From the IMG/VR virus record IMGVR_UViG_2974625447_000001, positions 57,808 through 121,807 of that record: a DNA stretch of 64,000 bases, one strand, 5' to 3'. The position numbers and the translations under genes are program-made. Of the stretch, positions 6,830-54,592 are shown one piece after another (positions within the stretch are counted from its first letter, which is position 1; each line of letters opens with the position of its first letter). The notes under the pieces were generated by a model that saw only the letters and a program-made list of their open reading frames with translations, did no database searches and was not told the origin of the DNA. This stretch comes from Streptomyces virus Yaboi. Taxonomy: Duplodnaviria > Heunggongvirae > Uroviricota > Caudoviricetes.

Positions 6830-7612
6830 ATGGATACTATGTCTACAGGACTAATCAAAACAGTACGGCTAGGGAAGAAGCTGTCTTTCGACACTAAGAA
6901 GTTTCTTTCTGTAATTGAGCAGGCTTATGTCAACTCAAGGCCGAAGAGTAGAGTTACCAAGAAGGTTTCCTTTTCTCCGTCTTCTGTAGGTTATGGTGCC
7001 GGTACTTGTCCAAGGTACTGGTACCTAGCTTTTACAGGTGGAGAATTCGTTGATACCTTCGACGGACTAAGTGTCGCCAATATGGCAAACGGTACAGCAG
7101 CTCACGACCGAATCGAAAAGCTTTTTGCTGACGCTGGTGTACTGGAAGAAGCAGAACGTGAAATCACCCATCAGAATCCCCCAATCAGGGGATTTGTTGA
7201 TGTTATCGTGAACTTTGAAGGAAAGCGTGTAGTCGGAGAGTTTAAGACAACTCGCCAGGAGTCTTACATTCATCGTGAGGCAAATGGAACGGCTATCGAT
7301 TACCACAAGGTTCAAGTCCTAATCTATATGCGTGTCCTCGGTCTTGATGAGGGATTTGTTCTTTACGAGAACAAGAACACGCAGGAGCTATTCCTTGTGC
7401 CAGTCATCATGGATGAGGCAAATACGGAATATACGGACTACATCTTCAATTGGATGAACGAGGTAAGAAGGCTTTGGGAAGAAGAGAAGCTTCCTACTCG
7501 TCCATTCAGTCAGAAGAATAAGGCATGCAAGTCATGCGCGCTATTCAATCTGTGTTGGAACGAATCTCCAGAAGGCGACATTACTTACCCACCATTGGAG
7601 GTGAAGAAGTAA
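6830..7612 (+). CDS. Cas4/RecB-like PD-(D/E)XK nuclease with Cys cluster
   Basis: GFVDVIV...GEFKTT (D...ExK) nuclease motifs; N-terminal Cys plus C-terminal CKSCALFNLC (Fe-S-like). Confidence 0.65.
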   Translation: MDTMSTGLIKTVRLGKKLSFDTKKFLSVIEQAYVNSRPKSRVTKKVSFSPSSVGYGAGTCPRYWYLAFTGGEFVDTFDGLSVANMANGTAAHDRIEKLFADAGVLEEAEREITHQNPPIRGFVDVIVNFEGKRVVGEFKTTRQESYIHREANGTAIDYHKVQVLIYMRVLGLDEGFVLYENKNTQELFLVPVIMDEANTEYTDYIFNWMNEVRRLWEEEKLPTRPFSQKNKACKSCALFNLCWNESPEGDITYPPLEVKK

Positions 7613-13744: not shown

Positions 13745-14365
13745 ATGTCTACTACTACAGCTATGTTGCTCATCGTTGACCGATCTGGTAGCATGTCTAG
13801 TATCCAGATGGAAGCAGAGCAAGCGCTGAATGACTTCCTTGATCGGCAGAAGGCCGTAGATGGCCGATGCGGAATTAAGGTCGTTCAGTTTGATAACGAA
13901 GTAGAAGATCTATTTGGTCCAGTTGCCCTAGCTAATGCTCCTGAGATCAAGCTCATTCCTCGCGGAATGACGGCACTACTTGACGCAATAGGCAAGAGTG
14001 TGACAGAATTTAGGCAGACGATGGATCATATGCCGGTGGATAACAAGCTAGTCGTTATCCTCACAGATGGTCTTGAGAATGTCTCTCGGGAGTGGAAGCT
14101 AGATGCAGTTAACAAGCTGATTAGTGAGTCAAGGGAGCTGGGCTACGAGTTCATCTTCCTTGCTGCTAATCAGGACGCCATTGCAACTGGTGCCCAGATG
14201 GGTATTCCAAATGCTTCAAGTTTGACCTTTGCGGCCAGTCCGGCTGGTGTACGTGGCATGGGAGCAACCATGGATGCGTATGTCACTAATTATCGTGAAG
14301 GAAAGAGAGCAGAATTCACTGATCAGGATCGCAAGACAGCCAGCGGCTTGACAGACGAAGACTGA
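13745..14365 (+). CDS. von Willebrand factor A (vWA) domain protein
   Basis: MIDAS motif LIVDRSGSMSS; ...ILTDGLEN. Confidence 0.65.
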   Translation: MSTTTAMLLIVDRSGSMSSIQMEAEQALNDFLDRQKAVDGRCGIKVVQFDNEVEDLFGPVALANAPEIKLIPRGMTALLDAIGKSVTEFRQTMDHMPVDNKLVVILTDGLENVSREWKLDAVNKLISESRELGYEFIFLAANQDAIATGAQMGIPNASSLTFAASPAGVRGMGATMDAYVTNYREGKRAEFTDQDRKTASGLTDED

Positions 14366-14471
14366 TCTGTTAGAGTATTAAATGTGGGTCGAAGGGCTCG
14401 GTCGGTTATCTTACTTGGAATCAGATCGCCATTAAATTGGCACCCGACTCCCAACACTTATCCACATTATT

Positions 14472-15841: not shown

Positions 15842-15967
15842 CCGAATGCAGTTCTTTGAGCTGCACGTCCTGCGAGCGTGATGCTGGAATGGTAAGGTGA
15901 TGTCCTGCCATCAAGGTTCGACTCCTTGCGCGTTGCGAACTGGGTGTGATACGATAACTCACAACTA

Positions 15968-16041
15968 CGGGATGTAGCTCAGCTTGGTAGAGCGCGCCGT
16001 TTGGGGCGGTGAAGTCGCAGGTTCGAATCCTGTCATCCCGA
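15968..16041 (+). tRNA. tRNA-Pro (anticodon TGG)
   Basis: acceptor cgggatg/catcccg; D-arm gctcAGCTTGGTAgagc; anticodon loop ttTGGgg (G37); T-arm gcaggTTCGAATcctgt. Confidence 0.8.
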
Positions 16042-16115
16042 CAATTTGGGTCGAATGGGACACGGTTATCATACAATGGATAATAGGTTCGATTCCTATC
16101 GCTGGGTTCGCCCGG
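16042..16115 (+). ncRNA. tRNA-like element X1 abutting tRNA-Pro (paralogue of X2)
   Basis: starts cAATTTGGGTCGAATGGGACACGGTTATC (shared with X2) and contains T-arm-like ataggTTCGATTcctat; no canonical cloverleaf. Confidence 0.3.
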
Positions 16116-16203
16116 TAGATAAAGTCATCTGAGATTGTGTGTGGTAGGATGACATTAAGGACTACACACTCTCCGTTCCCACCTTATACCTAAAGGATTT
16201 ATT

Positions 16204-16725
16204 ATGACGGTACTTCTGCGAACAATTCATGGAAGCCATCTGTATGGCCTCGCTCACGCAGACAGCGATAAGGATATCTACGAAGTAGTTACAACCACTC
16301 GCACTAAGCGTAAGCGAAACATTAAGCAGACCATTTCAAATGGTGTTGACAAGACGACGGTAGATATGTCAACATTTATGAGGATGGTTGATGATTGCGT
16401 ACCTCAAGCACTTGAAGCGCTATGGACGCCGGTAGCTGAGATCGATAAGATCCACGAATTCCGGACACAATATCGAGTGAATCGCGCCAAGATGAAGGAT
16501 GTGTACGTAAGAACTGCTCTGAATTTTGCCAAGAGTGACGGAATTAAGCAGAAGAAGCACGCAGTGCGGCTCTTGCTGAACCTTGGTCACACTTTGGAAT
16601 TTGGAAAGTTCAATCCTCGATTGGATGCAATGGATAAGATCATTATCAATGCATCTGTCGGAGATGCGGGAAAGTATGATGCTGTGTTCGACGCTCTTAT
16701 TGATGAGGTCGGCCGGTGGATATGA
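16204..16725 (+). CDS. Pol-beta-superfamily nucleotidyltransferase
   Basis: HGSHLYGLAHADSDKDIY = GS-x9-DxD NTase signature; 173 aa. Confidence 0.5.
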   Translation: MTVLLRTIHGSHLYGLAHADSDKDIYEVVTTTRTKRKRNIKQTISNGVDKTTVDMSTFMRMVDDCVPQALEALWTPVAEIDKIHEFRTQYRVNRAKMKDVYVRTALNFAKSDGIKQKKHAVRLLLNLGHTLEFGKFNPRLDAMDKIIINASVGDAGKYDAVFDALIDEVGRWI

Positions 16726-16734
16726 TCCCACCAT

Positions 16735-16811
16735 TGGGGCGTATACCCTCTGTCTGATAAACAGTTGAAAGGTTAAGTGGTCACATGTGGGTTCAACTCC
16801 CACCGTCCCAA
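16735..16811 (+). tRNA. non-canonical tRNA-like gene W1 (anticodon-like loop GAT, Ile)
   Basis: acceptor tggggcg/cgtccca (7 bp) and T-arm gtgggTTCAACTcccac are canonical. The only anticodon-like hairpin (tctgt-ctGATaa-acagt, U33/A37) sits at positions 15-31 directly after a 7-nt linker tataccc. A 21-nt region with a D-loop-like AAGTGG follows. Confidence 0.45.
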
Positions 16812-22157: not shown

Positions 22158-22232
22158 CTTTTGGGTCGAATGACTATCGGTTATCTGTCTATGAAACAGA
22201 CTGAAACACGGTTCGAATCCGTGGCTTGCTTT
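22158..22232 (+). ncRNA. tRNA-like element X2 abutting tRNA-Asp, candidate Y-RNA-like/tRNA-mimic near rsr
   Basis: starts cTTTTGGGTCGAATG, contains hairpin gtct-atgaaac-agac and T-arm-like acacgGTTCGAATccgtg but no pairable acceptor; homologous to X1. Confidence 0.35.
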
Positions 22233-22713
22233 GGATGCTAGGTTTACGGTCGATGTCAACAACTTACCCATACAATTTTATATCGGGCCGAAGAGTATCG
22301 ATTATCTTACACTGCAAATGAAAGATCGATATTCACCAACTTGCCCGATCTTTTCATTTCTACGAAAGGATCAAAGGTTGGACACCGAAGCGCGCATCGC
22401 ACGTTTCAAGGAGCTTTGGCAATCAGGCGAAAGCTATTGGGCAGAAGACATTGTTGATGAAATCAATGGTGAGCTGTCAGACGATGAGTTCAAGCTGAGG
22501 CATGTAGATCAAATCGAAGAGGACACCTCTCGATGGATGGATCACATGTTGGATATCGTTGAAATTAACGAAGGTGTCTTCGTTGGAGTACGCTGGGAAA
22601 GCGGCAAGACGGAGATGCAAGAGAATATGTATGAAGACGATTCCGTCTATCTGCTTGAGCGAGTAGAGAAGGTCATCACTACTGTTGAGTGGAATGATCT
22701 AAAGACTCTCTAA
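22231..22713 (+). CDS. hypothetical acidic protein upstream of Ro60
   Basis: 160-aa ORF. Confidence 0.4.
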   Translation: MDARFTVDVNNLPIQFYIGPKSIDYLTLQMKDRYSPTCPIFSFLRKDQRLDTEARIARFKELWQSGESYWAEDIVDEINGELSDDEFKLRHVDQIEEDTSRWMDHMLDIVEINEGVFVGVRWESGKTEMQENMYEDDSVYLLERVEKVITTVEWNDLKTL

Positions 22714-22748: not shown

Positions 22749-24374
22749 ATGTCCAACGCACTAACTAACGCCGCAAAGGCAGCAAACAAGACTTCTCAGT
22801 CAATGAAGGCTAAGGCTGGACAGGTTAAGAACAACGCTGGTGGATTCGTCTTCCAGGTTTCTGACCAGGCCCGCCTTGAGCGTTTCCTTATTCTGGGAAC
22901 TGACGGAGGAACGTACTACGTCAATGAGGTTAACCACACTCAGAAGAACGTAGATTTCCTTAACGAGTTTATTGCTCGTGACGAAGCTGCTGTCCTGAAC
23001 ACGATTGTTGATGTCTCTGTCAATGGCCGTGCATACAAGCAGTCTCCAGCCCTTTTCGCCCTTGCTTCTGTTATTGTCAATGGCAAGGACAAGCAGGCGG
23101 TAAAGGCTGTATTCAACAAGGTCGTAAGGACTGCTACTCATCTCTACGAGGTGGTTAACTACCTTAACGAGCTTGGTGGATGGGGTCGCGCAAAGCGCGA
23201 GATCGTGGCTGGCTGGTTCGATAGGGACGCTGATAAGCTTGCTTATCAGGCAGTCAAGTATCGTTCCCGTAAGTTCGGTGGCAACACCTGGACGCTACGA
23301 GACGTGATGCGAAAGGCTCATCCACAGAACGTTGATGCGAATGTAGCTGCCTTTATCACAAAGGGGGATGTTGTAACAGACTCTCCAGTTGCGATTAAGG
23401 GTTTCGCCCGAATGCAGAAGGCAACTTCTGTTGAGGAAGTCCACAGCGTTCTTCGTGAATACGAGATGCTTTCATGGGAGACAATTCCAACACAGTTCCT
23501 CACGGATGCCAGTGTTTGGAAGCGACTCTTTGCTAATGGTCAGCTTCGCGGCCAGGCTGCTGTTCGAAACATCACTCGCCTTGCGCGTATTGGTGCCTTC
23601 AAGGATATGCGTTTCGCTGCGAACTTTGCTAGCCAGCTAACGAATGAGGAAATGATTCGTCAGTCTCGACTGCACCCAATCAACTTCCTTAACGCTGCCG
23701 TTGTTTATGCGGAAGGCCAGGTGGATCGAAAGACCTACTATGGTGGTCGTGTGAAGAACTGGGAGACTGAGGGCGTTATTGTCGATGCTATCGATGAGGC
23801 GTTTCACAAGTCATTCAAGACCATTGAGCCAGCGGGAAAGAGGACGATGCTCGCCATCGACTGTTCCGGTTCAATGAGTGCACTTGCGTCAGGTCTCGAT
23901 CTAACTTGTGCACAGGTCGCTGCTGCAATGGCAATGACTGTTGCACGTACTGAGCCAGCTCACATTATTCGTGGCTTCTCCAGCGCGGGTTACAACTGGC
24001 GTGACAGTGGTCTAGCTGAGCTAAAGATTACCGGCCGTTCCTCTCTTGCCCAGGCAATGAGTGAGATGCGAAAGGTGAACTGGGGCGGAACTGACTGCTC
24101 ACTGCCAATGACGTGGGCTCTTGAGAACAGGGTTGAAGTTGACACCTTTGTTGTTATCACTGATAACGAGACATGGGCTGGAAAGATTCACCCATTCCAG
24201 GCTCTCAAGCAGTATCGCAAGAGCATGGGAATCGATGCGAAGCTTGCTGTTCTAGGAGTTTCTGCAACTGATTTCTCTATCGCTGATCCAAGTGATCGCG
24301 GCATGATGGATTTCGTTGGCTTTGATAGCAACGCTCCACGTGTTCTGGCTGACTTCTCTGCGGGTCGTCTCTGA
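22749..24374 (+). CDS. rsr: Ro60/TROVE-domain RNA-binding protein (Rsr homologue) with C-terminal vWA
   Basis: 541 aa; N-terminal RLERFLILGTDGGTYYV matches Ro60 RLHRFLCFGSEGGTYYI; PALFALASV matches Ro60 PMLFALAIC; C-terminal vWA MIDAS LAIDCSGSMS; RBS ggaaaggaaag; terminator 24376-24405. Confidence 0.85.
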   Translation: MSNALTNAAKAANKTSQSMKAKAGQVKNNAGGFVFQVSDQARLERFLILGTDGGTYYVNEVNHTQKNVDFLNEFIARDEAAVLNTIVDVSVNGRAYKQSPALFALASVIVNGKDKQAVKAVFNKVVRTATHLYEVVNYLNELGGWGRAKREIVAGWFDRDADKLAYQAVKYRSRKFGGNTWTLRDVMRKAHPQNVDANVAAFITKGDVVTDSPVAIKGFARMQKATSVEEVHSVLREYEMLSWETIPTQFLTDASVWKRLFANGQLRGQAAVRNITRLARIGAFKDMRFAANFASQLTNEEMIRQSRLHPINFLNAAVVYAEGQVDRKTYYGGRVKNWETEGVIVDAIDEAFHKSFKTIEPAGKRTMLAIDCSGSMSALASGLDLTCAQVAAAMAMTVARTEPAHIIRGFSSAGYNWRDSGLAELKITGRSSLAQAMSEMRKVNWGGTDCSLPMTWALENRVEVDTFVVITDNETWAGKIHPFQALKQYRKSMGIDAKLAVLGVSATDFSIADPSDRGMMDFVGFDSNAPRVLADFSAGRL

Positions 24375-28013: not shown

Positions 28014-28091
28014 GGGTCTGACAGGTGTGACGTTACTGAAAGCCGACAATGGACCGGTAACGGATAGTGGGTTCGACTCCCACCAGATCCA
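28014..28091 (+). tRNA. tRNA-like gene, anticodon undetermined (atypical middle region)
   Basis: acceptor gggtctg/cagatcc and T-arm gtgggTTCGACTcccac are canonical. The interior has a 6-bp stem cgttac/gtaacg around a 20-nt loop that contains AATGG, with no 5-7-5 anticodon arm. Confidence 0.35.
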
Positions 28092-28112
28092 CAAGTGATT
28101 TATTCACTATAT

Positions 28113-28334: not shown

Positions 28335-28448
28335 AGGAGTGTAGTTTAATTGGCAAAACCGCGAAATGCACTGCCGAAAGTGATGTGGCGTAGCCCGCAG
28401 TGAGTAGGTAACAGAGTAGCAGTTGCGGGTTCGAGTCCCGTCGCTCCG
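28335..28448 (+). ncRNA. tRNA-like RNA with about 40-nt internal insertion (pseudo-tRNA or insertion-containing tRNA)
   Basis: 5' acceptor-like aggagtg plus canonical D-arm gtttAATTGGCAaaac; 3' T-arm gcgggTTCGAGTcccgt plus cgctccg; 64 nt between them with no anticodon arm. Confidence 0.3.
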
Positions 28449-28585
28449 CTAGCCTGAGACGACGATCCGATGTAGGTCCCCTAGGGCTTGCGCAGGCCCG
28501 AAGGGCATTCGGGAAAGGTTCCTAGCTAGGTCCGTCTATCAATAGGGTGAGAGTTTTGACAGTTTCCTCATAATAAACTGTCCCC

Positions 28586-28657: not shown

Positions 28658-28730
28658 CAATGAGTAGGCAGGGAACGGTTCGATTCCGTGTTTCGCGCGT
28701 TGGTGTATGGTGCATAGGCTTGCTCAGTAA

Positions 28731-28801: not shown

Positions 28802-28878
28802 CTTTGCTGGAAGATGATAGACTCTGGGGAAGGCCAGATAAATAACGAAAGCGCGGTGCGAGTCCGCCAACAGCGTAT

Positions 28879-28956
28879 GCCCTAGTATCGCCACTGGCTT
28901 CTAACCAGTCGTTAACAGCGTAATGGAGTATGCAGGTTCGAGTCCTGTCTAGGGTA
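28879..28956 (+). tRNA. non-canonical tRNA-like gene W2 (anticodon-like loop TCT, Arg)
   Basis: acceptor gccctag/ctagggt; 7-nt linker tatcgcc; hairpin actgg-ctTCTaa-ccagt at positions 15-31; 22-nt region with AATGG; T-arm gcaggTTCGAGTcctgt; same layout as W1 and W3. Confidence 0.45.
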
Positions 28957-33196: not shown

Positions 33197-33273
33197 GTCT
33201 CCATATCTCCTCTGCCTCCTAAGCAGTTGAAAGAGTAACCGGATACATGTGGGTTCGACTCCCACTGGGGACA
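33197..33273 (+). tRNA. non-canonical tRNA-like gene W3 (anticodon-like loop CCT, Arg)
   Basis: acceptor gtctcca/tggggac; linker tatctcc; hairpin tctgc-ctCCTaa-gcagt at 15-31; 21-nt region tgaaagagtaaccggatacat (near-identical to W1); T-arm gtgggTTCGACTcccac. Confidence 0.45.
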
Positions 33274-33972: not shown

Positions 33973-34045
33973 GCTCCGGTAGCTCAGTTGGTAGAGCAGT
34001 TGACTCTTAATCATCAGGTCCACGGTTCGAGTCCGTGTCGGAGTA
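33973..34045 (+). tRNA. tRNA-Lys (anticodon CTT), 28-42 U-U mismatch
   Basis: acceptor gctccgg/tcggagt; D-arm gctcAGTTGGTAGagc (E. coli Lys-like); anticodon arm gttga-ctCTTaa-tcatc; T-arm cacggTTCGAGTccgtg. Confidence 0.6.
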
Positions 34046-34171
34046 CAAAACGAGGTTGCAAACTCGTTCAATCATAATGTGGGTTCGATTCCCTGCTGGT
34101 GCAGCATTATGGTGTAATTGAGCGGAAAAGGCGGCACCATTATGCGGTGCGCTGTCTGGCCTCTCTCTTAT

Positions 34172-36758: not shown

Positions 36759-36830
36759 GGTTGCGAGCCAGGGATAAGCTAGGCGGGTCTGTAAAACCCT
36801 ACCTTGGGAGTTCGAATCTCCCCGCAACCA
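36759..36830 (+). tRNA. class-I tRNA with anticodon GTA (Tyr-type anticodon, short variable arm)
   Basis: acceptor ggttgcg/cgcaacc perfect; anticodon loop ctGTAaa on 4-bp stem gggt/accc; T-arm gggagTTCGAATctccc. Confidence 0.45.
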
Positions 36831-36832
36831 CT

Positions 36833-39259: not shown

Positions 39260-39537
39260 GGGGATGCCTTGGTTTCGACTGGCGCGGATAACCTTAGTTT
39301 GCAGCCTGACATTGAGGAGATGTCATTAAAAAGCCTCAAACCTATAAATGCCAACTCTAACGTTGCATCTGCCTACGCCCTAGCGGCGTGATGGCCGGGC
39401 GGCAACTGCCTAGGAACAGAAAGTTGCGAATGTTTGGCCCGGTGGGGATAAACACATGCAGTACCTGCTTGACACATGGCTGTGTATAGACTACTGTTAG
39501 ATTCGTCAGGACGCGGGTTCGACTCCCGCCATCTCCA
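39260..39537 (+). ncRNA. ssrA: tmRNA (ssrA), tag reading frame ANSNVASAYALAA
   Basis: 5' GGGGATGCCTTGGTTTCGACTGG resembles E. coli tmRNA 5' end; 3' GGACGCGGGTTCGACTCCCGCCATCTCCA nearly identical to E. coli tmRNA T-arm/acceptor; acceptor ggggatg/catctcc with G3-U70; internal frame 39350-39391 GCC AAC ... TAC GCC CTA GCG GCG TGA. Confidence 0.8.
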
Positions 39538-40150
39538 CTTAAGGATCATCATGCAGATGACTGCAAGGTCTACTATGATAGACTTTGATCTCACCGAGCG
39601 CGATGCTCGAACAATTCAGAAAAGCATGAAGACTGGACCAGTCACTCTCAAGGTTACTAGGGTTCAGATCAGCTACACATATGGTGCCGTTCTTGTTGGC
39701 ACTGAGCGTAATCCTGGTCCTCACTACAAGGTGAGGGTGTCAGGATATCGAATGAAGGCTGGCATGAAGCAACGGGATACTGTTGTCCAGCACAGCTATC
39801 TCAACCCTAATCTGCCGGATTGGCTGGAGCAGATGGTTGTTGACAACGCCCCAAACTGGTACTAGGATGTAGACATGCCGAACTGGATGCGACTACCTAA
39901 CACACGCAAGGATGTCTCACTCGGATACCGAATGGGATCTGCGTTCGAAAATGGCTATGGCGATGAGGGACCTCTCGCCAGGGGCCTTGTTGTTGGAGGA
40001 TGTGTTTTCCTCCCCCTTCTAATTGTCATCGCTCTCTTTGGCGGTGCAGCCTACGGACTCTGGGAGCTTGCCACATGGCTCTGGACTATGATAGCCTGAT
40101 GAAGAAGTGGATGGACACCATCCGCAAGATCGAGCAGCGTAAGGACTGAA

Positions 40151-41116: not shown

Positions 41117-41667
41117 GCAATATCAATTAGACTTCATAATCACCTTCCTGTTATACTAATGGTGCCCTAATCCATCAGAGGCAGGAGGATTGAATATGGA
41201 CTTTGTGGAACACCTAGGTTACCAGTACCTCTCTGATCTTCTGACGGAAATCCGACAGGGCCAGCAGAGATTGGAGGATAGAATGGCAGACCTAACAACT
41301 GAGGTTGCAAACCTCCGCGAAGCGGTATCTGGCGTAAGTTCAAGAGTTGATGCCCTTGTTGGCCCTCTTGCGGACGCCGTTAGAGAGGCACAGGAAGCTC
41401 TACAGGCAGAGCGTGACGCCGCTGAGGCATTGCGTGTATCTGAGGACGCCGAAGATGTTGAGCAGAATGCTGCATTGCAGGACGCTCAGGATCGTCTTGA
41501 TGCTGCACTAGCTCAGGCTTCCGATGCAGCCGATCAGATCAGTGTTGAGACAGCTCGTCTAAATGAGGTCGCAAAGCCAGCAGAGGAGCCTACTCCGGAG
41601 CAGCCAAGCGAGCCAACACCTGATGAGCCATCCGGCCCTGGTACCGAGCTTTGATAGAAAAATAGTT

Positions 41668-41706
41668 GACAGCCAGCTTAATATAATGTTAGGCTGGCTG
41701 TCGCAT
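41668..41706 (+). terminator. stem-loop (10-bp inverted repeat gacagccagc/gctggctgtc), terminator-like
   Basis: perfect inverted repeat around a 15-nt AT-rich loop ttaatataatgttag, directly after CDS ending 41654; overlaps an apparent TTGACA hexamer. Confidence 0.45.
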
Positions 41707-41734
41707 GCTGGGGAAGTTCTTTGGTAAGAGCAGC

Positions 41735-41763
41735 CGCTCTATAGCGTCACTTCATTGTGCACG
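41735..41763 (+). promoter_or_regulatory. sigma-70-like promoter TTGACG-N17-TAGAAT
   Basis: tTTGACGccttctagtagcgctgcTAGAATgacag; transcript leader carries a T-arm-like hairpin before gene at 41853. Confidence 0.45.
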
Positions 41764-43424
41764 GTGTTTTGACGCCTTCTAGTAGCGCTGCTAGAATGAC
41801 AGAGATGGAAGGTTGCGGGTTCGATTCCCGCCCCCGGATTTTAAGGAGTATCATGAAAGATGATCTGATTGAGATCTCAGATGAAGAGTTTCGAGCGGCG
41901 TACCAAAGAAGGTTGAAGGCTCTAGGAATTACTGAGCAAGATCTTCTACGTCAAGCTGCGGCAGGAAACTTTGACACACATCAAATTAGAATGCTATGGT
42001 TTACAGTAGGCGGCTGGAAGAACGGCAAGCCTGTAGTCATGGCGTGAGGAGTGAAATGAACTACAACCCTGGTTAAGTAGCTTGACAAAGCTACACAACA
42101 ACAACTAGGATGTGATGTATGGCTACTGGCAAGGAGCGAGGCTTCAAGGACTGGAAGGGCTCCAAGGAGTTCCGCCGAAGCGCTCGTAATTACACTGAGT
42201 CCGAGACCGTTGGTAAGGGCAAGAAGAAGAACACTCGCAAGTGGTGCAAGGGAAAGGTCGGACGTAAGCACGTCCTTGGGCTTTTCAACAAGTACACCTG
42301 GCGACACGGGTACAAGTGCATCAATTGTGGGCGCGAGTTTCTTTGGCATTTTAGCGACCCGAACCGTGACAAGTTCGACTATGTTCCCGTAAGCTGGGAT
42401 GACCCTAGGGCGAACTGATGCAACTTAAGATGTACGCAATTGCCTGTGACCAAGCAGAAGCTATAAAGAACTGTTACACAGGCAAATATACAAACCAACC
42501 ATTCTGGCCTGATCATAAAACTCTGCTCCCATATCTGGAGCGAGCTAAGGCCGACAATCCTGATCTCCCATTGAAGATCTTTGTCATTAAGGTGAGTGGA
42601 TAAAATTGGCCGGTAACAAGAACAGCCGTAAGAAGTGGCTTTGCCTTGATTGTGGTGTAGACACTGGCAGGGTTGGCGAACACTTCTTTCTGATCAACGA
42701 GGTCTGGTCCTTGACAGGACTTGGGCACAAGGGTATGCTCTGTATTGAGCACGTTGAGAAGCGCATCGGTAGGCGTCTTGTTCCGGCCGATTTTGCTTCT
42801 GTGTGGATCAATGGACCGCGCGGCGGAATGAAGAGTCAGCGCCTTGCCAATCGATTGGGATACAAATGAATTGGAATTGGGTAGACGCGGCTCCAGAGGC
42901 CGTAGCTTATTACAAAAAGAAGAAGGCTGTCAAAGTCAACACAGTTGGCGACATAGAGGTCTGGCGAGATGTTTACGGCTATTCACGATTGATTCGTGAA
43001 AAGGACGGTAAGATTCAGGTCAGCGGTCGAGACTTCTTCACGATCAAGGACGCCACCGATGCAGCCTCTGCGTGTTAAGGTTGGCGATACTGTCTGTGAT
43101 TGCAGATACCTCCACCAAAAGGTGTTGAAGATCTGGCCAGACGGTGATACAGTAACTCTAGAAGATGGGGCAAGCTGCTCCATACGGCACTGCCTTGATG
43201 AAGCAAATCACGAATGGCAGCACCCAGAAGAAAACTAATCAGGAGGCCCGATGAGCTGGTTCAAATCAAAGAAGGGAAAGACTCAGCAAATCACTGAGCC
43301 TTCAAGACTGAGCCTAGATATTCTGGACATTCCAGGAATCGATGATGAAATCGACCAATGTGTTTGTGCGGAAGATTTTCTTGATCTCCTCGAAAAGTAT
43401 CGGAAAAATTAACCAGGAGGACCG

Positions 43425-44501
43425 ATGAAGTTCACCAAGATTTTCTCTCAGGAGCTTCTTGACGAGATGATCGCTGAGGGCTACGTCCGGGTGCAAACTC
43501 ATCCGGTCCTGCCTCTCAAGATTCTTAACTACTCTGAGAAGACTCAGTTCGCCGGAAAGTGGAACGAGTGCACGCTTAACTGCCGAGGCACAATTGTTGA
43601 CTTTGACGGCAACCTGATCGCTCGTCCTTTCATGAAGTTCTTTAACCTGGGTGACTCTCAGTCTGCACAGCTTGACTGGGATGCTCCGGTTGAGGTTACC
43701 GACAAGAAGGACGGGTCTATGGGAGTCTTGTACTCCTATAATGGAGAGCTGGCAATTGCAACTCGCGGCTCATTCATGTCAGATCAGGCAATTCACGCGA
43801 CTCGCGTTCTGAACGAGCGATACAGCCACATTCAGTTCGTCTCAGACTACACATTCATCTTCGAGATCGTTTACCCTGAGAACAGGATCGTTCTGGACTA
43901 CGGTTCACTTGACGACCTGATTCTGTTGGGTGCGGTTCACAAGGAGCATGGGTACGTCTGTGGCCCTCTGGAGGCTCAGGCAATTGTAAATTGGGACGGG
44001 CCGGTGACGGAGGTCTTCAATTACTCATCATTGCGTGAGGCGGCAGGGGCGCAGTACAGGAAGAACGCAGAGGGTTTCGTCGTCCGATCAGGCTCTAAGA
44101 TGGTCAAGATCAAGCAGGCAGATTACGTTGAGCTGCACCGCATGATCTCCATGCTTTCAGAGCGCTCTGTATGGAGTCAGCTCACCGAGGGAAAGACAAT
44201 TCTTGAGATTTGTGAGGCACTGCCTGACGAGTTTCACGGATTCGTCAAGGATGTCGGTGGCAAGCTGCTGGAGGAGTACAAGCGCATTGAGGTTGAGGTT
44301 TACGGTATCTACCAGAACCTTCTGACTTCTTTGGGCGAGGGCTTCTCACGCCGAGACTTCGCTATGGCTGCAAACCGAATTGATCTGTACCGATCTCACA
44401 TGTTCAACCTGCTTGACGGGAAGAGCATCGATGAGCTAATCTGGAAGCAGATCAAGCCGGAGGCCAAGCGAGAGGACGTACACCCTACTAATGCAGGCTA
44501 A
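43425..44501 (+). CDS. ATP-dependent RNA ligase (covalent nucleotidyltransferase, KxDG motif)
   Basis: motif I VTDKKDGSMGVLY (KxDG lysine nucleotidylation site); 358 aa; adjacent to polynucleotide kinase-phosphatase. Confidence 0.7.
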   Translation: MKFTKIFSQELLDEMIAEGYVRVQTHPVLPLKILNYSEKTQFAGKWNECTLNCRGTIVDFDGNLIARPFMKFFNLGDSQSAQLDWDAPVEVTDKKDGSMGVLYSYNGELAIATRGSFMSDQAIHATRVLNERYSHIQFVSDYTFIFEIVYPENRIVLDYGSLDDLILLGAVHKEHGYVCGPLEAQAIVNWDGPVTEVFNYSSLREAAGAQYRKNAEGFVVRSGSKMVKIKQADYVELHRMISMLSERSVWSQLTEGKTILEICEALPDEFHGFVKDVGGKLLEEYKRIEVEVYGIYQNLLTSLGEGFSRRDFAMAANRIDLYRSHMFNLLDGKSIDELIWKQIKPEAKREDVHPTNAG

Positions 44502-45230: not shown

Positions 45231-46139
45231 ATGAACGAAGGAGGCAGCGTGCAGCTTCTAATTCTCCGGGGCGTTCCCGGTTGTGGTAAGAGCACCTGGG
45301 CACACGATGTGTGGCTCAAGGGAAACCCGAATGGTGTTCGTGTAAACCGTGACGACATTCGTATGCAGCTCTTTGGCCGGGAGACCGGAGTAGATGAGGA
45401 GCTTGTAACTCGAATTGAGCACGGAATGGTGGAAGGCGCTCTGTCAAAGGGCTACTCTGTCATTGTCGATGACACCAACATTCGACACAAGTACATCAAG
45501 GAATTTGTCAAGATTGGTCAGCGTCATGGCGCTAGCGTTGCTGTAAAGCAATTCGATGTCTCTCTTGAGACGGCAATTGCTCGAAACAAGGCGCGTGCTG
45601 AGGCCGGTGGCCGAGACGTTCCTGAGTCCGTTATCCGTAGAATGCATCAGTCTCTCAAGTCTAGTGGAATTTTCACTGACTTCCACACTGATGTTACGGC
45701 CGTTCGTCCTTATGAGCGTCCCGAAGGTGCAGAGAAGGTCTACCTCTTTGACATTGACGGCACGCTTGCTGAGATGAATGATCGTGATCCCTTCAATTGG
45801 AGGGAAGTTGGAACGGATGATCCGCGACGACAGGTGATCCTTACTGCTCAGGCTCACGCCAAGGCAGGATACAAGATCATCGTCATGAGTGGACGAGATG
45901 GCTCATGTCGCAATGAAACAATCGCTTGGCTGAACCTGTACGACATTCCTTTCTCAGAATTGCACATGCGTGCTGAGGGGGATATGCGCAAGGACTCCAT
46001 CGTCAAGCAAGAGCTGTTCGATGAGCACATTCGGGACATCTATGATGTTGTGGCTGTGTACGATGATCGTCAGCAGGTTGTTGACATGTGGCGTGCGATG
46101 GGCATAGACTGTTTCCAGGTAGCACCCGGAAACTTCTGA
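45231..46139 (+). CDS. polynucleotide 5'-kinase/3'-phosphatase (Pnkp, T4 PseT-like)
   Basis: N-terminal P-loop LRGVPGCGKSTWA kinase; C-terminal HAD phosphatase LFDIDGTLAEM; terminator 46141-46170. Confidence 0.85.
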   Translation: MNEGGSVQLLILRGVPGCGKSTWAHDVWLKGNPNGVRVNRDDIRMQLFGRETGVDEELVTRIEHGMVEGALSKGYSVIVDDTNIRHKYIKEFVKIGQRHGASVAVKQFDVSLETAIARNKARAEAGGRDVPESVIRRMHQSLKSSGIFTDFHTDVTAVRPYERPEGAEKVYLFDIDGTLAEMNDRDPFNWREVGTDDPRRQVILTAQAHAKAGYKIIVMSGRDGSCRNETIAWLNLYDIPFSELHMRAEGDMRKDSIVKQELFDEHIRDIYDVVAVYDDRQQVVDMWRAMGIDCFQVAPGNF

Positions 46140-53552: not shown

Positions 53553-54592
53553 GCGCTGAGAATGTAGCGGCACTCATGGCCGTAGAGAACGTCAGGAAGC
53601 TGTTCAGGGAATTTCGTTTTGAGCCGGGCACCGGATTCATGTGTGACCTTGTTCAATACCCTGCAACGCAACACGACGTTCCCAACTTCGCTCTAAGAGC
53701 CTACAGCAACACCTTTGACAACCTTTCTCAGAAGAACAGGCTGCTAATCACCGAACAGATTGGCAGTCTGATTCAGAAAATCCGTTCTCTTGGTGTTAAC
53801 TGTATTTTGGAGGTATATGATGCACCGGGAAAGCCAAGTGGTTCTGGTAGTTAGTGAAGGTGTCTACGGGATTATCACCGAAGTTCATAGCTATATGTGC
53901 AAGGTGCAGTATTCCGTGGGTGGAATAGAGTACAATGAATATTTCGAAAACGATGACCTTGAGGTCATTGGAGAGATTGGATATGAGGAGGAGTGAGCGA
54001 ACTGGTTTGTCAGATCTGTGACAAGCAGAGGAATTCACTGGTGAATTACAAGTCAAAGCTTAATCCAGATATGGATTTCATGGCTTGCTCTCCGTGCGCC
54101 AATGGCGAGCTAGAGCCTAGATGGCTTGTAATTCTGATGGCCCGATCAGGAGCCAACGTGAGCAGATGGCTTGAGAATAAGCTTTACGTTGGTGAGGACA
54201 TCACTGAGAAGCATTTGAATTAAGCCATCAGGCCGGGTATACTAGCCAAGACTAGGGAACTACGGGGTTCGAATCCCTACCGGCCGCAATTGATCCCCTT
54301 GATGGGAGGACGATGTATTTTGAAGATGAGCCTTCAACAGCGCAGTGTATAAAAGATTTGACCAAAGAGATCTGGGTGACCATCAAGATGGTTTTGAGAT
54401 CAGAAGCAACTCCGGAGGAAATTTCCGGTGCTGCTGAAAGGGCCAAGTTTCTGCGTTTGTATATCGACAGATATCACTCAAAGGACATGGATGCTCTAAC
54501 CGAGACAGAAATTTGGCTCGCTCAAGAAGTAGCCGATGCCGTTGAAGACTTGATTGATTGACTTTTAACTCATCAATGACTACAATTCGTAT

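What the first reader, a model, noticed from the sequence alone, without database searches (positions are those of the whole stretch)
28658..28700. Scattered T-arm-only / minihelix tRNA fragments
Besides full tRNAs there are at least six isolated GTTCGA-type T-arm hairpins lacking D and anticodon arms. They are 28670-28700 (gaacgGTTCGATTccgtg), 28848-28862 (gcggTGCGAGTccgc), 34046-34105 (anticodon-like hairpin aacgag-gttgcaaa-ctcgtt plus T-arm gtgggTTCGATTccc), 41790-41825 (in the 5' leader of the gene at 41853, downstream of a promoter) and 54225-54285 (acceptor-like ggccgg/ccggcc plus hairpin plus T-arm). X1 and X2 are also of this kind. They may be RNase P/RNase Z processing punctuation, decoy substrates for T-loop-recognising enzymes, or relics of tRNA gene turnover. 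Their number and placement in UTRs suggest function.
Basis: seen in the sequence. Interest (0 to 1): 0.55.

Follow-up and report, generated by a model that had tools for sequence, protein, structure and literature searches.

The report
tRNA-like non-coding RNAs in phage
The "orphan" tRNA T-arm hairpins scattered through this Streptomyces phage genome are real. Almost all of them are the T-arms of larger, conserved, unannotated tRNA-like and Y-type non-coding RNAs, and are neither loose fragments nor decayed tRNA genes.

Summary
The window is Streptomyces phage Yaboi (cluster BE).

**Observation.** GGTTCRANTCC occurs 40 times, all on the + strand, against 0.29 expected.

**Interpretation.** "T-arm-only" is mostly wrong. 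Comparison with 12-90 related phages shows each hairpin sits inside a larger RNA kept by compensatory changes.
- **E, the flagged site (28661-28727):** a ~66-nt module with a closing stem, T-loop hairpin, palindromic hexamer and UUGGUGUAUGG. It recurs behind a different tRNA, with different closing stems, in Mandalore and a 115-kb metagenomic phage.
- **G (34045-34171):** a 125-nt RNA with 13 covarying pairs.
- **H:** the T-arm of a 134-nt cloverleaf-like RNA (41707-41840). Its acceptor strand and D-arm lie 100 nt upstream, and the "promoter" hexamers are helix strands.
- **I (54231-54287):** a 57-nt acceptor/T-arm mini-tRNA, 97-98% conserved.
- **F (28803-28878):** probably a tRNA relic.

Other T-arms belong to Y RNAs next to the phage Ro60 gene and to an 81-nt RNA built like the tRNA-like domain of tmRNA (G3:U70, no coding part).

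**Inferred mechanism.** These RNAs are co-transcribed with the tRNAs, matured by the tRNA-processing machinery, and act as non-decoding tRNA mimics. Function is untested.

The parts
28661..28727 (+). Element E, the flagged site. A ~66-nt module made of: closing stem TGAGTAGGC/GCTTGCTCA; T-loop hairpin ACGG-TTCGATT-CCGT (28675-28689); palindromic hexamer CGCGCG (within 28691-28703); and a D-loop-like TTGGTGTATGG.
   Evidence: Three compensatory pairs in the closing stem among 5 phages. The same core has different closing stems (GGTGAG/CTCACC; GCAGATAAGG/CCTTACTGC) and a T stem of GCGG/CCGC behind tRNA-Val(tac) in Mandalore and in contigs L059 and L055. The hexamer stays palindromic: CGCGCG, CCTAGG, CCCGGG. 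It is present in only 13 phage records.
28803..28878 (+). Element F. A 76-nt tRNA-sized spacer with the hairpin GCGG-TGCGAGT-CCGC (28848-28862). Probably a degenerate tRNA-like relic.
   Evidence: Found only in the Yaboi group and StarPlatinum; other relatives have tRNA-Arg(tct) 5 nt after tRNA-Gly. ARAGORN calls it only at its laxest setting. Folding z-score is -0.03. There is no C74.
34045..34171 (+). Element G. A 125-nt structured RNA between two tRNA-Lys genes. P1 is a hairpin at 34049-34068. P2 (34071-34113) encloses GGG-TTCGATT-CCC (34081-34093) followed by CUGGUG. A 3' domain carries a nested hairpin.
   Evidence: 99.7% of cells are paired, and 13 pairs show changes on both sides, in 11 sequences. 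Present in 87 phage records, all unannotated. No Rfam match. No paralog found with its own covariance model.
41707..41840 (+). H-RNA. A 134-nt cloverleaf-like RNA made of: acceptor GCTGGGG/CCCCGGA; D-arm GTTC-TTTGGTAA-GAGC; a long stem in place of the anticodon arm, opening into two hairpins (S1 41744-41775, S2 41777-41796); and T-arm 41815-41831.
   Evidence: Independent minimum-energy folds of 4 of the 6 relatives give the same architecture. RNAalifold finds 40 pairs, 17 of them with compensatory changes. The module is present in 47 records. The promoter-like TTGACG (41769-41774) and TAGAAT (41792-41797) are the 3' strands of S1 and S2.
54231..54287 (+). Element I. A 57-nt mini tRNA-like RNA between genes 240 and 241, made of: a 6-bp acceptor GGCCGG/CCGGCC; hairpin CTAG-N6-CTAG; T-arm 54263-54279; then G73-C74.
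   Evidence: Present in 86 phage records, all unannotated. Pairwise identity is 0.97-0.98 inside the element against 0.57-0.63 in the upstream ORF. The best Rfam match is the tRNA-like mascRNA at 17.6 bits, below threshold. In Yaboi a T-to-C change breaks the 49-65 pair.
28014..28092 (+). Element D. A 79-nt RNA built like the tRNA-like domain of tmRNA, made of: acceptor GGGTCTG/CAGATCC with G3:U70, A73 and C74; a D-loop analogue; an 8-bp stem capped by the invariant loop GAAAGCCGACAAUGGAC; and T-arm 28067-28083.
   Evidence: The Rfam tmRNA model aligns it end to end, with 306 model positions replaced by 14 nt (34-43 bits). 99.1% of cells are paired, 6 pairs covary, and the G-U pair is invariant. 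Present in 83 records, all unannotated. A homologue in L055 scores 59.5 bits.
22161..22271 (+). Element C. A Y RNA with a T-arm module (22207-22223), lying 3 nt after tRNA-Asp and 480 nt upstream of the Ro60 gene (22749-24374).
   Evidence: Carries the GNCGAANG motif, GGTTATC, and a bulged terminal helix. 97% of cells are paired and 5 pairs covary. The Ro60 gene has TROVE and vWA_Ro60 domains.
22283..22349 (+). Element C2. A minimal Y RNA without a T-arm.
   Evidence: Scores 36.7 bits with the model built from C. Scores 38.2 bits on Rfam RF01656, whose gathering score is 38. I recall the members of RF01656, the nematode stem-bulge RNAs, as the Y RNA homologues of nematodes; that identification is from memory.
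16045..16194 (+). Element B. A Y RNA with a T-arm module (16083-16099), lying 3 nt after tRNA-Pro and ending in the ribosome-binding site of the RlaP-like gene 110.
   Evidence: Has the same 5' motif and bulged helix as C. Scores 22.1 bits with the model built from C. RlaP is identified by Pfam.
14384..14466 (+). Y RNA-like element without a T-arm, just upstream of tRNA-Gly.
   Evidence: Scores 33.8 bits with the model built from C. Terminal helix is GTGGGT/ATCCAC.
15876..15940 (+). Element A. A tRNA-like RNA with an acceptor-like stem, one long hairpin and T-arm 15912-15928. It lies inside a 124-nt insert between two tRNA-Pro genes.
   Evidence: Found only in Yaboi and Wofford. ARAGORN calls 15870-15936 at a relaxed setting. 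The loop triplet differs between the two phages (GAT against GAC).
28335..28449 (+). Element X. A tRNA-like RNA with acceptor, D-arm and T-arm, in which 58 nt replace the anticodon arm. It shares the ACAGAGTAG motif with H-RNA.
   Evidence: Rfam tRNA model scores 31.2 bits with a 58-nt insert. Conserved in all 12 relatives, with acceptor covariation.

Best explanation
The scattered T-arm hairpins are the T-arms, or T-loop modules, of a repertoire of at least ten non-decoding, tRNA-like non-coding RNAs. These RNAs are encoded on the transcribed strand of the phage's tRNA-rich arm.

**The types**
- **Y RNAs (B, C, plus two without a T-arm).** These are partners of the phage Ro60 protein. A Ro-binding bulged helix formed by the two ends carries a tRNA-like T-arm in its loop.
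- **Acceptor/T-arm RNAs without an anticodon loop.**
  - D copies the tRNA-like domain of tmRNA, including the alanine identity pair G3:U70.
  - I is a 57-nt mini version.
  - H-RNA and X are full cloverleaf cores whose anticodon arm is replaced by a large branched domain.
- **Other folds with a T-loop hairpin.** In E and G, a T-loop hairpin followed by a GG-containing strand sits inside a closing helix.

**What is shown:** existence, strand bias, conservation and compensatory base changes.

**What is inferred**
- The RNAs are transcribed together with the neighbouring tRNAs.
- Their ends are made by the same RNase P and 3'-end/CCA pathway. Most abut tRNAs, and those with an acceptor stem share the N73-C74 end of every tRNA gene in this phage.
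- The T-arm serves as the handle by which tRNA-recognising proteins or Ro60 partners bind them, so they act as tRNA mimics.

Element F, and possibly A, are more likely decaying tRNA-like copies.
For: **Non-randomness and strand bias:**

**Conservation in relatives, unannotated wherever the searches listed feature names**
- D in 83 records.
- I in 86.
- G in 87.
- H in 47.

**Compensatory changes**
- D: 6 pairs, 99.1% of cells paired.
- G: 13 pairs, 99.7%.
- C: 5 pairs, 97%.
- H-RNA: 17 of 40 pairs, with concordant independent folds.
- E: a different closing stem in each of five lineages around an invariant core.

**Y RNA identity**
- The GNCGAAN0-1G motif, as defined in PMC4201824.
- An adjacent Ro60 gene with TROVE and vWA_Ro60 domains.
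- The model built from C recovers C2, the 14384 element and B.
- C2 reaches the gathering score of RF01656.

**Likeness of D to the tRNA-like domain of tmRNA**
- The Rfam tmRNA model aligns D end to end.
- The next-best hits of D's own model include both tRNA-Ala genes.

**Shared 3' end**
- All 41 tRNA genes and the tmRNA have N73-C74.
- So do D, I, X, Z, V and Y33197, and 6 of 7 H-RNAs.

**Position next to tRNAs:**
Against: - There are no expression or end-mapping data, so transcription, processing and stability are all inferred.
- Folding energies are unremarkable, with z-scores from -0.6 to -1.6.
- The stems of I never vary, so its structure rests on sequence conservation alone.
- E occurs in only 13 phage records and at two different genomic positions.
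- The Yaboi copy of H-RNA has a G1-A72 mismatch and lacks C74, so in this genome it may be impaired.
- Symmetric changes in palindromes (S2 of H-RNA; the hexamer of E) fit a DNA-level protein site as well as an RNA helix.
- B and C are not recognised by Rfam's YrlA model and lack its D stem-loop.
- The relatives are closely related, so some covariation counts reflect few independent events.
Confidence: 0.75

Rival explanations
1. All of them are relics of tRNA gene turnover. They would be decaying pseudogene fragments left by duplication, deletion and replacement in a fast-evolving tRNA array, with no function of their own.
For: - The array does turn over. The slot between tRNA-Phe and tRNA-Gly holds E in some phages, a different tRNA-like gene in L005, and nothing in L012.
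- F and A occur in only two lineages each.
- The centre of G reads like a tRNA 3' part: T-arm, then a 7-nt strand, then A-C.
- The 5' part of E resembles the GAGTAG-plus-T-arm 3' part of X and H-RNA.
Against: - D, G, I and H-RNA are kept in 47-87 genomes across two subclusters that are otherwise only ~75% identical.
- Their boundaries are sharp, and 6-17 pairs show compensatory changes.
- E keeps its core while its closing stem is completely replaced.
- Pseudogenes would not keep pairing.
Confidence: 0.1
2. They are only processing punctuation. On this view they are minimal RNase P / RNase Z cleavage signals that cut the long polycistronic transcripts, and the excised RNA itself has no role.
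For: - I lies between two ORFs and has an 11-bp acceptor/T-arm minihelix with G73-C74.
- M. smegmatis YrlA is cleaved by RNase P in vitro and receives CCA in vivo (PMC4201824).
- The tRNA-like RNAs share the 3'-end rule of the tRNA genes.
Against: - A cleavage signal needs only the minihelix, yet several other features are invariant:
  - the 16-nt loop and G3:U70 of D
  - the branched domain of H-RNA
  - the GNCGAA motif of the Y RNAs
- The three helices of G outside the T-loop hairpin are kept by compensatory changes.
- E, G, B and C have no acceptor stem next to the T-arm, so they are not RNase P-type substrates themselves.
- Most elements already sit between tRNAs, which would provide the cuts.
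Confidence: 0.12
3. Some of the conserved features act at the DNA level rather than as RNA. They would be promoters, operators or recombination sites. Candidates are the TTGACG-17-TAGAAT match and the palindrome TTCTAGTAGCGCTGCTAGAA inside H-RNA, and the palindromic hexamer in E.
For: - The promoter-like site matches 10 of 12 positions with an extended -10.
- The core of the palindrome is invariant.
- Palindromes kept by symmetric changes are what a dimeric DNA-binding protein would select.
Against: - The -35 hexamer is the 3' strand of helix S1. Its 5' partner, 20 nt upstream, changes in step with it (GCGTCA/TGACGC to GTGTCA/TGACAC). That pair is not a palindrome, so it points to RNA pairing.
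- The whole unit folds as a cloverleaf whose acceptor stem also covaries.
- A DNA role cannot explain the acceptor, D-arm and T-arm.
Confidence: 0.1

Closest known systems
Bacterial and phage Y RNAs: YrlA, YrlB and Yrn1 (Chen et al. 2014, PMC4201824)
   Same: - B and C have the GNCGAAN0-1G motif.
- A helix formed by the 5' and 3' ends carries a bulged C.
- A T stem-loop with the tRNA T-loop sequence sits in the loop.
- C and C2 lie on the same strand as a Ro60 gene and within 0.5 kb of it.
- There are several Y RNAs per genome, placed next to each other and to tRNAs.
   Different: - There is no conserved D stem-loop, and Rfam's YrlA model does not recognise them.
- By the paper's description, they look more like Yrn1 or YrlB (a T-arm but no full D-arm) than like YrlA.
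- B and the 14384 element lie 6.6 and 8.3 kb from Ro60.
- The paper's text, as read here, names mycobacteriophages and mentions no Streptomyces phage.
tRNA-like domain of tmRNA (Rfam RF00023)
   Same: - D has a 7-bp acceptor with G3:U70 and A73.
- It has the GG-containing D-loop analogue, the start of helix P2, and the T-arm.
- All are in tmRNA order and spacing.
   Different: - D has no mRNA-like domain, tag reading frame or pseudoknots; a 16-nt loop closes P2.
- It scores below the family's gathering score.
- It coexists with a complete phage tmRNA at 39260-39538.
- From memory, the only natural tmRNAs reduced this far are those of jakobid mitochondria; I did not check this here.
mascRNA and other tRNA-like processing elements (Rfam RF01684)
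   Same: - I, and partly A and D, are ~57-80-nt RNAs with an acceptor/T-arm minihelix and a reduced middle part.
- I lies inside a longer transcript, where RNase P / RNase Z cleavage would release it.
   Different: - The mascRNA matches are weak and below threshold: I scores 17.6 bits against a threshold of 42.5, D 15.1 and A 13.8.
- mascRNA is eukaryotic, so there is no homology; the likeness is architectural only.
Stable RNAs of unknown function in the phage T4 tRNA cluster (species 1 and 2, rnaC/rnaD). Recalled from memory and not checked here.
   Same: They are small non-tRNA RNAs encoded among phage tRNA genes, co-transcribed with them and released by tRNA processing.
   Different: No sequence or structure comparison was made. 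The hosts and phage families are unrelated.

Membership tests
Y RNA (YrlA type, PMC4201824) | GNCGAAN0-1G motif near the 5' end | tested here: met
   Met for B (GTCGAATG, 16050), C (GTCGAATG, 22165), C2 (GCCGAAG) and the 14384 element. Absent from D, E, G, H and I.
Y RNA (YrlA type, PMC4201824) | Helix formed by the 5' and 3' ends | tested here: met
   The terminal helix and second helix of C covary. B, C2 and the 14384 element show the same helices.
Y RNA (YrlA type, PMC4201824) | Conserved T stem-loop together with a conserved D stem-loop (the tRNA-like domain) | tested here: not met
   The T stem-loop is present in B and C. No D stem-loop is present. Rfam YrlA gives no hit on B or C, and its one 20.1-bit hit is a chimera of A's T-arm and the D-arm of tRNA-Pro.
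Y RNA (YrlA type, PMC4201824) | Encoded within about 4 kb of a Ro60 (TROVE) gene, on the same strand | tested here: met
   C and C2 lie 0.4-0.5 kb upstream of gene 130, which has TROVE and vWA_Ro60 domains. B and the 14384 element lie 6.6 and 8.3 kb away on the same strand.
Y RNA (YrlA type, PMC4201824) | Bound by Ro60 | not testable with these tools
   Needs immunoprecipitation.
tmRNA (RF00023) | tRNA-like domain: acceptor with G3:U70, T-arm, D-loop analogue, helix P2 | tested here: met
   Met for D.
tmRNA (RF00023) | mRNA-like domain with a resume codon, tag reading frame and stop; pseudoknots | tested here: not met
   306 model positions are replaced by 14 nt. D scores 34-43 bits against a gathering score of 47.
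tRNA (RF00005) | Cloverleaf with a 7-nt anticodon loop on a 5-bp stem | tested here: not met
   E, G and I get no tRNA hit even with lax filters. D and H-RNA get no tRNA-model hit in the scan of the region, and clan filtering may hide a weaker one under D's tmRNA hit. X hits only with 58 nt replacing the anticodon arm. H-RNA has a branched domain there. ARAGORN calls none of them at default settings.
tRNA pseudogene or relic | No selection: sequence decays at the rate of the flanks and pairing is not maintained | tested here: not met
   D, G, H-RNA, C and E keep pairing through double changes. I is 97-98% identical against ~60% in its flank. The result is inconclusive for F and A, which have two lineages each.
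RNase P / RNase Z minihelix substrate | Coaxial acceptor stem plus T-arm of about 12 bp, with a free 3' end after N73 | tested here: met
   D has 7+5 bp, I has 6+5 bp, X has 6-7+5 bp, and H-RNA relatives have 7+5 bp. All are followed by N73-C74. This is not met for E, G, B and C, which have no acceptor strand next to the T-arm.
RNase P / RNase Z minihelix substrate | Actual cleavage at the predicted sites | not testable with these tools
   Needs end mapping or in vitro assays.

The most novel reading that the evidence does not exclude
The phage carries a toolkit of non-decoding tRNA mimics that act on host translation and RNA surveillance.

- **D** would be a natural tmRNA reduced to its tRNA-like domain. 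It would be charged with alanine and bind SmpB and EF-Tu, so it would tune or block ribosome rescue alongside the phage's own full tmRNA.
- **H-RNA, X, I, E and G** would be new families of tRNA-elbow mimics. They would act either as decoys for tRNA-targeting host defences or as cofactors of the phage's Ro60 / RlaP / RNA ligase / polynucleotide kinase repair set.
- **E** might pair with itself through its always-palindromic hexamer.
Probability: 0.2. Interest if true: 0.85.

Novelty: new variant of a known kind. Interest (0 to 1): 0.62.

Why it matters
**Annotation gap.** In the BE-cluster records whose annotation was seen here, these regions carry no feature, and the abstracts of the genome announcements found list only tRNAs and one tmRNA as RNA genes. 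At least ten further conserved structured RNAs lie unannotated in the same region, in nearly 90 sequenced genomes.

**What it adds**
- It extends phage Y RNAs to Streptomyces phages. Here they have a T-arm but no D-arm.
- It brings up an RNA that keeps only the tRNA-like domain of tmRNA, with the alanine identity pair. Such an RNA would be a ready-made natural probe of how that domain works without the coding part.
- Several folds with no Rfam family emerge: G, E, and the H-RNA/X type.

**Why these phages are a good system**
- Together with Ro60, RlaP, RNA ligase 1 and PNKP, these phages offer a compact system for asking why viruses invest in tRNA mimicry.
- The phages are easy to grow and engineer, so each RNA can be deleted and tested.

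**Practical point.** Standard tRNA finders miss these RNAs, and they also miss three D-arm-less tRNA-like genes. tRNA counts for such phages are therefore incomplete.

Tried and rejected
- **H as a leader hairpin.** I first read H as a hairpin in a 5' leader behind a promoter. I dropped this when the acceptor 5' strand and D-arm turned up 100 nt upstream with covariation.
- **E as a young relic.** I first took E for a relic, given its 13 records. I revised this when Mandalore and two metagenomic contigs showed the same core with other closing stems.
- **E as a paralog of G's T-loop domain.** I tested this with a covariance model of G. It gave no hit on E.
- **E, G, H, I and D as Y RNAs.** I tested them with the model built from C. 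Only the bare T-arm scored, at 8-11 bits.
- **Rfam YrlA hit at 15911-15993.** It is a chimera of A's T-arm and the D-arm of the next tRNA-Pro.
- **RAGATH-36 hits on E and C.** They score 14.7 and 11 bits against a threshold of 70, and one runs into tRNA-Gly, so I rejected them.
- **Pattern scans for E.**
  - The strict metagenome pattern found nothing.
  - The looser pattern gave 37 loci, of which 35 are ordinary tRNAs followed by a chance GGTGTATGG.
  - The IMG/VR scan for E returned only the four known phages.
- **D in a BK-cluster phage.** The 43 kb of Comrade searched has no D homologue. It does have T-arm-bearing Y-like elements and a D-arm-less Arg(tct)-type gene.
- **A short reading frame in the loop of D** (AUG GAC CGG UAA, with the stop kept as UAA, UAG or UGA). 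This can be explained by the stem's purine transitions alone, so I did not pursue it.
- **attP-type tRNA 3' fragments.** I considered and dropped this. The cluster is described as lytic (abstract of PMC12509530), and the elements have conserved 5' parts.
- **The match at 7309-7319.** It has only a 3-bp stem and was not examined further, so I treated it as chance.
Full report
**Source.** The window is Streptomyces phage Yaboi (MH727564.1 / NC_048730.1, cluster BE, genus Karimacvirus). Window position equals record position minus 57807. ARAGORN finds 41 tRNAs and one tmRNA, all on the + strand. At gathering thresholds Rfam adds a few weak tRNA hits. The region also encodes four RNA-handling proteins:
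- a Ro60 homologue with TROVE and vWA_Ro60 domains
- an RlaP-type nucleotidyltransferase
- a T4-type RNA ligase 1
- a PNKP kinase-phosphatase

**The observation.**
- A scan for a 5-bp stem around TTCRANY found 61 sites on the + strand and 6 poor ones on the - strand.
- The stricter GGTTCRANTCC occurs 40 times, all on the + strand, against 0.29 expected from shuffles.
- Thirteen of these lie outside ARAGORN's calls.
- The others are A 15915, B 16086, Z 16790, C 22210, D 28070, X 28428, V 28935, Y33197 33252, and a likely chance match at 7309.
- So orphan T-arm hairpins are real and far beyond chance.

**Method for working out what they are.** I fetched the matching regions of 12-13 BE1 and BE2 relatives from IMG/VR. 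I added single loci from GenBank phages and two metagenomic contigs. I then aligned each element.

**E, the flagged site (28661-28727).**
- The 72-nt spacer between tRNA-Phe and tRNA-Gly is found in only 13 phage records: the Yaboi group, Wofford, LukeCage, StarPlatinum and, in part, Mandalore.
- Relative to phages such as L012 it is an insertion. In L005 the same slot holds a different tRNA-like gene.
- It is nevertheless structured.
  - A 9-10-bp closing stem (TGAGTAGGC/GCTTGCTCA) shows three compensatory pairs among five phages.
  - Mandalore, a different genus, and the contigs L059 and L055 carry the same 45-nt core behind tRNA-Val(tac).
  - Their closing stems are unrelated: GGTGAG/CTCACC and GCAGATAAGG/CCTTACTGC.
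  - In L055 the T stem is GCGG/CCGC instead of ACGG/CCGT.
- The invariant parts are the T-loop GGTTCGATTCC and GTTGGTGTATGG(C/T)GCA. The latter contains a D-loop-like YYGGU.
- Between them lies a hexamer that is always palindromic (CGCGCG, CCTAGG or CCCGGG). It has therefore been kept by two double substitutions.
- E is not hit by the Y RNA model or by the model of G, and has no credible Rfam match.
- Its folding energy is ordinary, with a z-score of -0.99.
- Conclusion: E is a small conserved module of unknown function, patchy in distribution. It is not a bare T-arm.

**F (28803-28878).**
- This tRNA-sized spacer exists only in the Yaboi group and StarPlatinum. In other relatives tRNA-Arg(tct) follows tRNA-Gly after 5 nt.
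- It has a 4-bp acceptor-like stem, a 5-bp stem with a 6-nt loop, and the variant T-like hairpin.
- ARAGORN reports it only at its laxest threshold, and its z-score is -0.03.
- It is most simply a decaying tRNA-like copy. One compensatory change between the two lineages leaves some doubt.

**G (34045-34171).**
- The spacer between two tRNA-Lys genes is conserved in 87 records and never annotated.
- The structure is a 6-bp hairpin P1, then a 9-bp helix P2 enclosing GGG-TTCGATT-CCC and CUGGUGAAA, then a 3' domain with a nested hairpin.
- 99.7% of cells are paired. Thirteen pairs changed on both sides. No shuffle or slid control comes near this.
- It has no Rfam family and no paralog.
- The T-like hairpin plus the following TGGTGAA-A-C reads like the 3' part of a tRNA. 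G may therefore have been built from one, but it is now a different fold.

**H (T-arm 41815-41831).**
- The T stem covaries: GCGGG, GGAGG, GCAGG and AGAGG, each with its matching 3' strand.
- However, the 7 nt after the T-arm pair with a 7-mer about 100 nt upstream, and this pairing covaries:

| Phage | 5' strand / 3' strand |
|---|---|
| Wofford | GCCAGGG / CCCTGGC |
| Anedea | GCCGGGG / CCCCGGC |
| Jay2Jay | GCCTGCG / CGCGGGC |

- That 7-mer is followed by AA and a D-arm, GTTC-TTTGGTAA-GAAC (CGTC...GACG in Jay2Jay).
- Separate minimum-energy folds of four of the six relatives give the same cloverleaf-like shape. A long stem stands in place of the anticodon arm and opens into two hairpins.
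- RNAalifold predicts 40 pairs, 17 of them with compensatory changes.
- The promoter-like hexamers are the 3' strands of those two hairpins.
- Six of seven sequences have C at position 74. The Yaboi copy has a G1-A72 mismatch and TT instead, so it may be slightly degraded.
- X (28335-28449) is the same type. It has an acceptor, D-arm and T-arm, with 58 nt in place of the anticodon arm and the shared motif ACAGAGTAG before the T-arm.

**I (54231-54287).**
- It lies in the 89-nt gap between genes 240 and 241.
- It consists of a 6-bp acceptor, GTATA, a CTAG-N6-CTAG hairpin, GGAACTA, the T-arm, the acceptor 3' strand, and then G73-C74.
- It is present in 86 records. Identity is 0.97-0.98 inside it and 0.57-0.63 in the ORF upstream.
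- Only the hairpin loop and one T-stem base vary, so there is no covariation evidence.
- The best Rfam match is the tRNA-like mascRNA, below threshold.

**Related elements that carry the other orphan T-arms.**
- **The four Y RNA-like elements.**
  - C (22161-22271) starts 3 nt after tRNA-Asp and lies 480 nt upstream of Ro60. It has the GNCGAAN0-1G motif, GGTTATC, a terminal helix with a bulged C, and a second helix with a bulged U. These are the Y RNA hallmarks of Chen et al. 2014.
  - In C, 97% of cells are paired and five pairs covary.
  - A model built from C alone finds C2 (36.7 bits), the 14384 element (33.8 bits) and B (22.1 bits).
  - C2 reaches the gathering score of RF01656, the nematode stem-bulge RNAs. 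I recall these as the Y RNA homologues of nematodes.
  - B and C carry the T-arm in their loop but have no D stem-loop, and Rfam's YrlA model misses them. I therefore file them as Y RNAs, not as YrlA.
  - The BK-cluster phage Comrade has similar T-arm-bearing elements upstream of its Ro60 gene.
- **D (28014-28092), the tmRNA-domain-like RNA.**
  - It has sharp boundaries in all relatives.
  - The Rfam tmRNA model aligns it from position 1 to 374, with 306 positions replaced by 14 nt.
  - It has G3:U70 (invariant), A73, a GG-containing D-loop analogue, an 8-bp stem with four covarying pairs, and an invariant loop.
  - The next-best hits of its own model include both tRNA-Ala genes.
  - A homologue follows the E-like module in L055.

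**A shared feature.** All 41 tRNA genes and the tmRNA encode N73 followed by C, but not CCA. D, I, X, Z, V, Y33197 and most H-RNAs do the same. This is the main reason, together with their position between tRNAs, to infer that they pass through the same maturation pathway.

**Mechanism and confidence.**
- Shown: strand-specific excess, conservation, defined boundaries and compensatory changes.
- Inferred:
  - co-transcription with the tRNAs
  - end formation by RNase P and the 3'-end/CCA pathway
  - binding of B and C by Ro60
  - alanine charging of D
  - a role of the T-arm as the handle for tRNA-recognising proteins
- I put 0.75 on the statement that these are functional tRNA-like non-coding RNAs and not fragments. 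I put much less on any specific function.

**Novelty.**
- Y RNAs with tRNA-like parts are known (PMC4201824), so those here are new members.
- The following are not in Rfam 15, and I found no paper describing them:
  - an RNA reduced to the tRNA-like domain of tmRNA
  - cloverleaf cores with a branched domain in place of the anticodon arm
  - the E and G folds
- As a whole the finding is a new variant of a known kind, tRNA mimicry by viral non-coding RNAs.

Noticed in passing
window 16735-16811 (Z), 28879-28956 (V), 33197-33273 (Y33197): Three paralogous tRNA-like genes lack a D-arm. Each has a normal acceptor, T-arm and 7-nt anticodon loop (GAT, TCT, CCT) and a ~20-nt variable region that contains a D-loop-like AAnnGG. 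V and Y33197 sit exactly where relatives have canonical tRNA-Arg(tct) and tRNA-Arg(cct), and keep the same acceptor stems. Yaboi has no canonical copy of either. Comrade (BK cluster) has the same D-arm-less Arg(tct) type. GenBank annotates V as tRNA-Val(aac), but the loop reads CUUCUAA.
   Followed up: partly
all 41 tRNA genes and the tmRNA in the window: Every one encodes the discriminator base followed by C (C74), but none encodes the full CCA.
   Followed up: partly
window 28691-28703 and homologues: The hexamer inside element E is CGCGCG, CCTAGG or CCCGGG in different phages. It is always palindromic, which suggests either self-pairing of two RNA molecules or a DNA-level site.
   Followed up: partly
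L033 (NootNoot) about 400-560; start also seen in L021 (Wofford) after 332: An extra ~150-nt tRNA-like element lies just downstream of H-RNA. It has acceptor GGCCCCA/TGGGGTC and T-arm GTAGG-TTCGAAT-CCTAC. It is absent from Yaboi.
   Followed up: no
window 16204-16725 (gene 110), with 43425-44501 and 45249-46139: Gene 110, annotated as a nucleotidyltransferase, matches Pfam RlaP (RNA repair pathway). It starts right where Y RNA B ends. With Ro60, RNA ligase 1 and PNKP, the phage carries an RNA repair set.
   Followed up: partly
window 41666-41702: A conserved inverted repeat, GACAGCCAGC...GCTGGCTGTC, begins inside a TTGACA and ends 4 nt before H-RNA. In relatives it changes in step (GACAACCAGC/GCTGGTTGTC).
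   Followed up: no
window 36759-36831: The record annotates a second tRNA-Tyr(gta) here. Neither ARAGORN nor the Rfam scans run here reported it. It was the second-best hit of the model built from D, at 28.8 bits.
   Followed up: no
L055 (contig LLBZ010002397.1, 114,939 nt): This metagenomic contig has at least 27 tRNA genes in the 12.5 kb fetched. It carries tRNA-Val(tac), an E-like module and a D-like RNA in a row. It represents a more distant lineage that would be useful for covariation work.
   Followed up: partly
window 14348-14384: TTGACA-17 nt-TAGAGT lies immediately upstream of the first Y RNA-like element and the tRNA-Gly/Gln/Trp group. It may be the promoter of that RNA cluster. This is a pattern match by eye only.
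   Followed up: no
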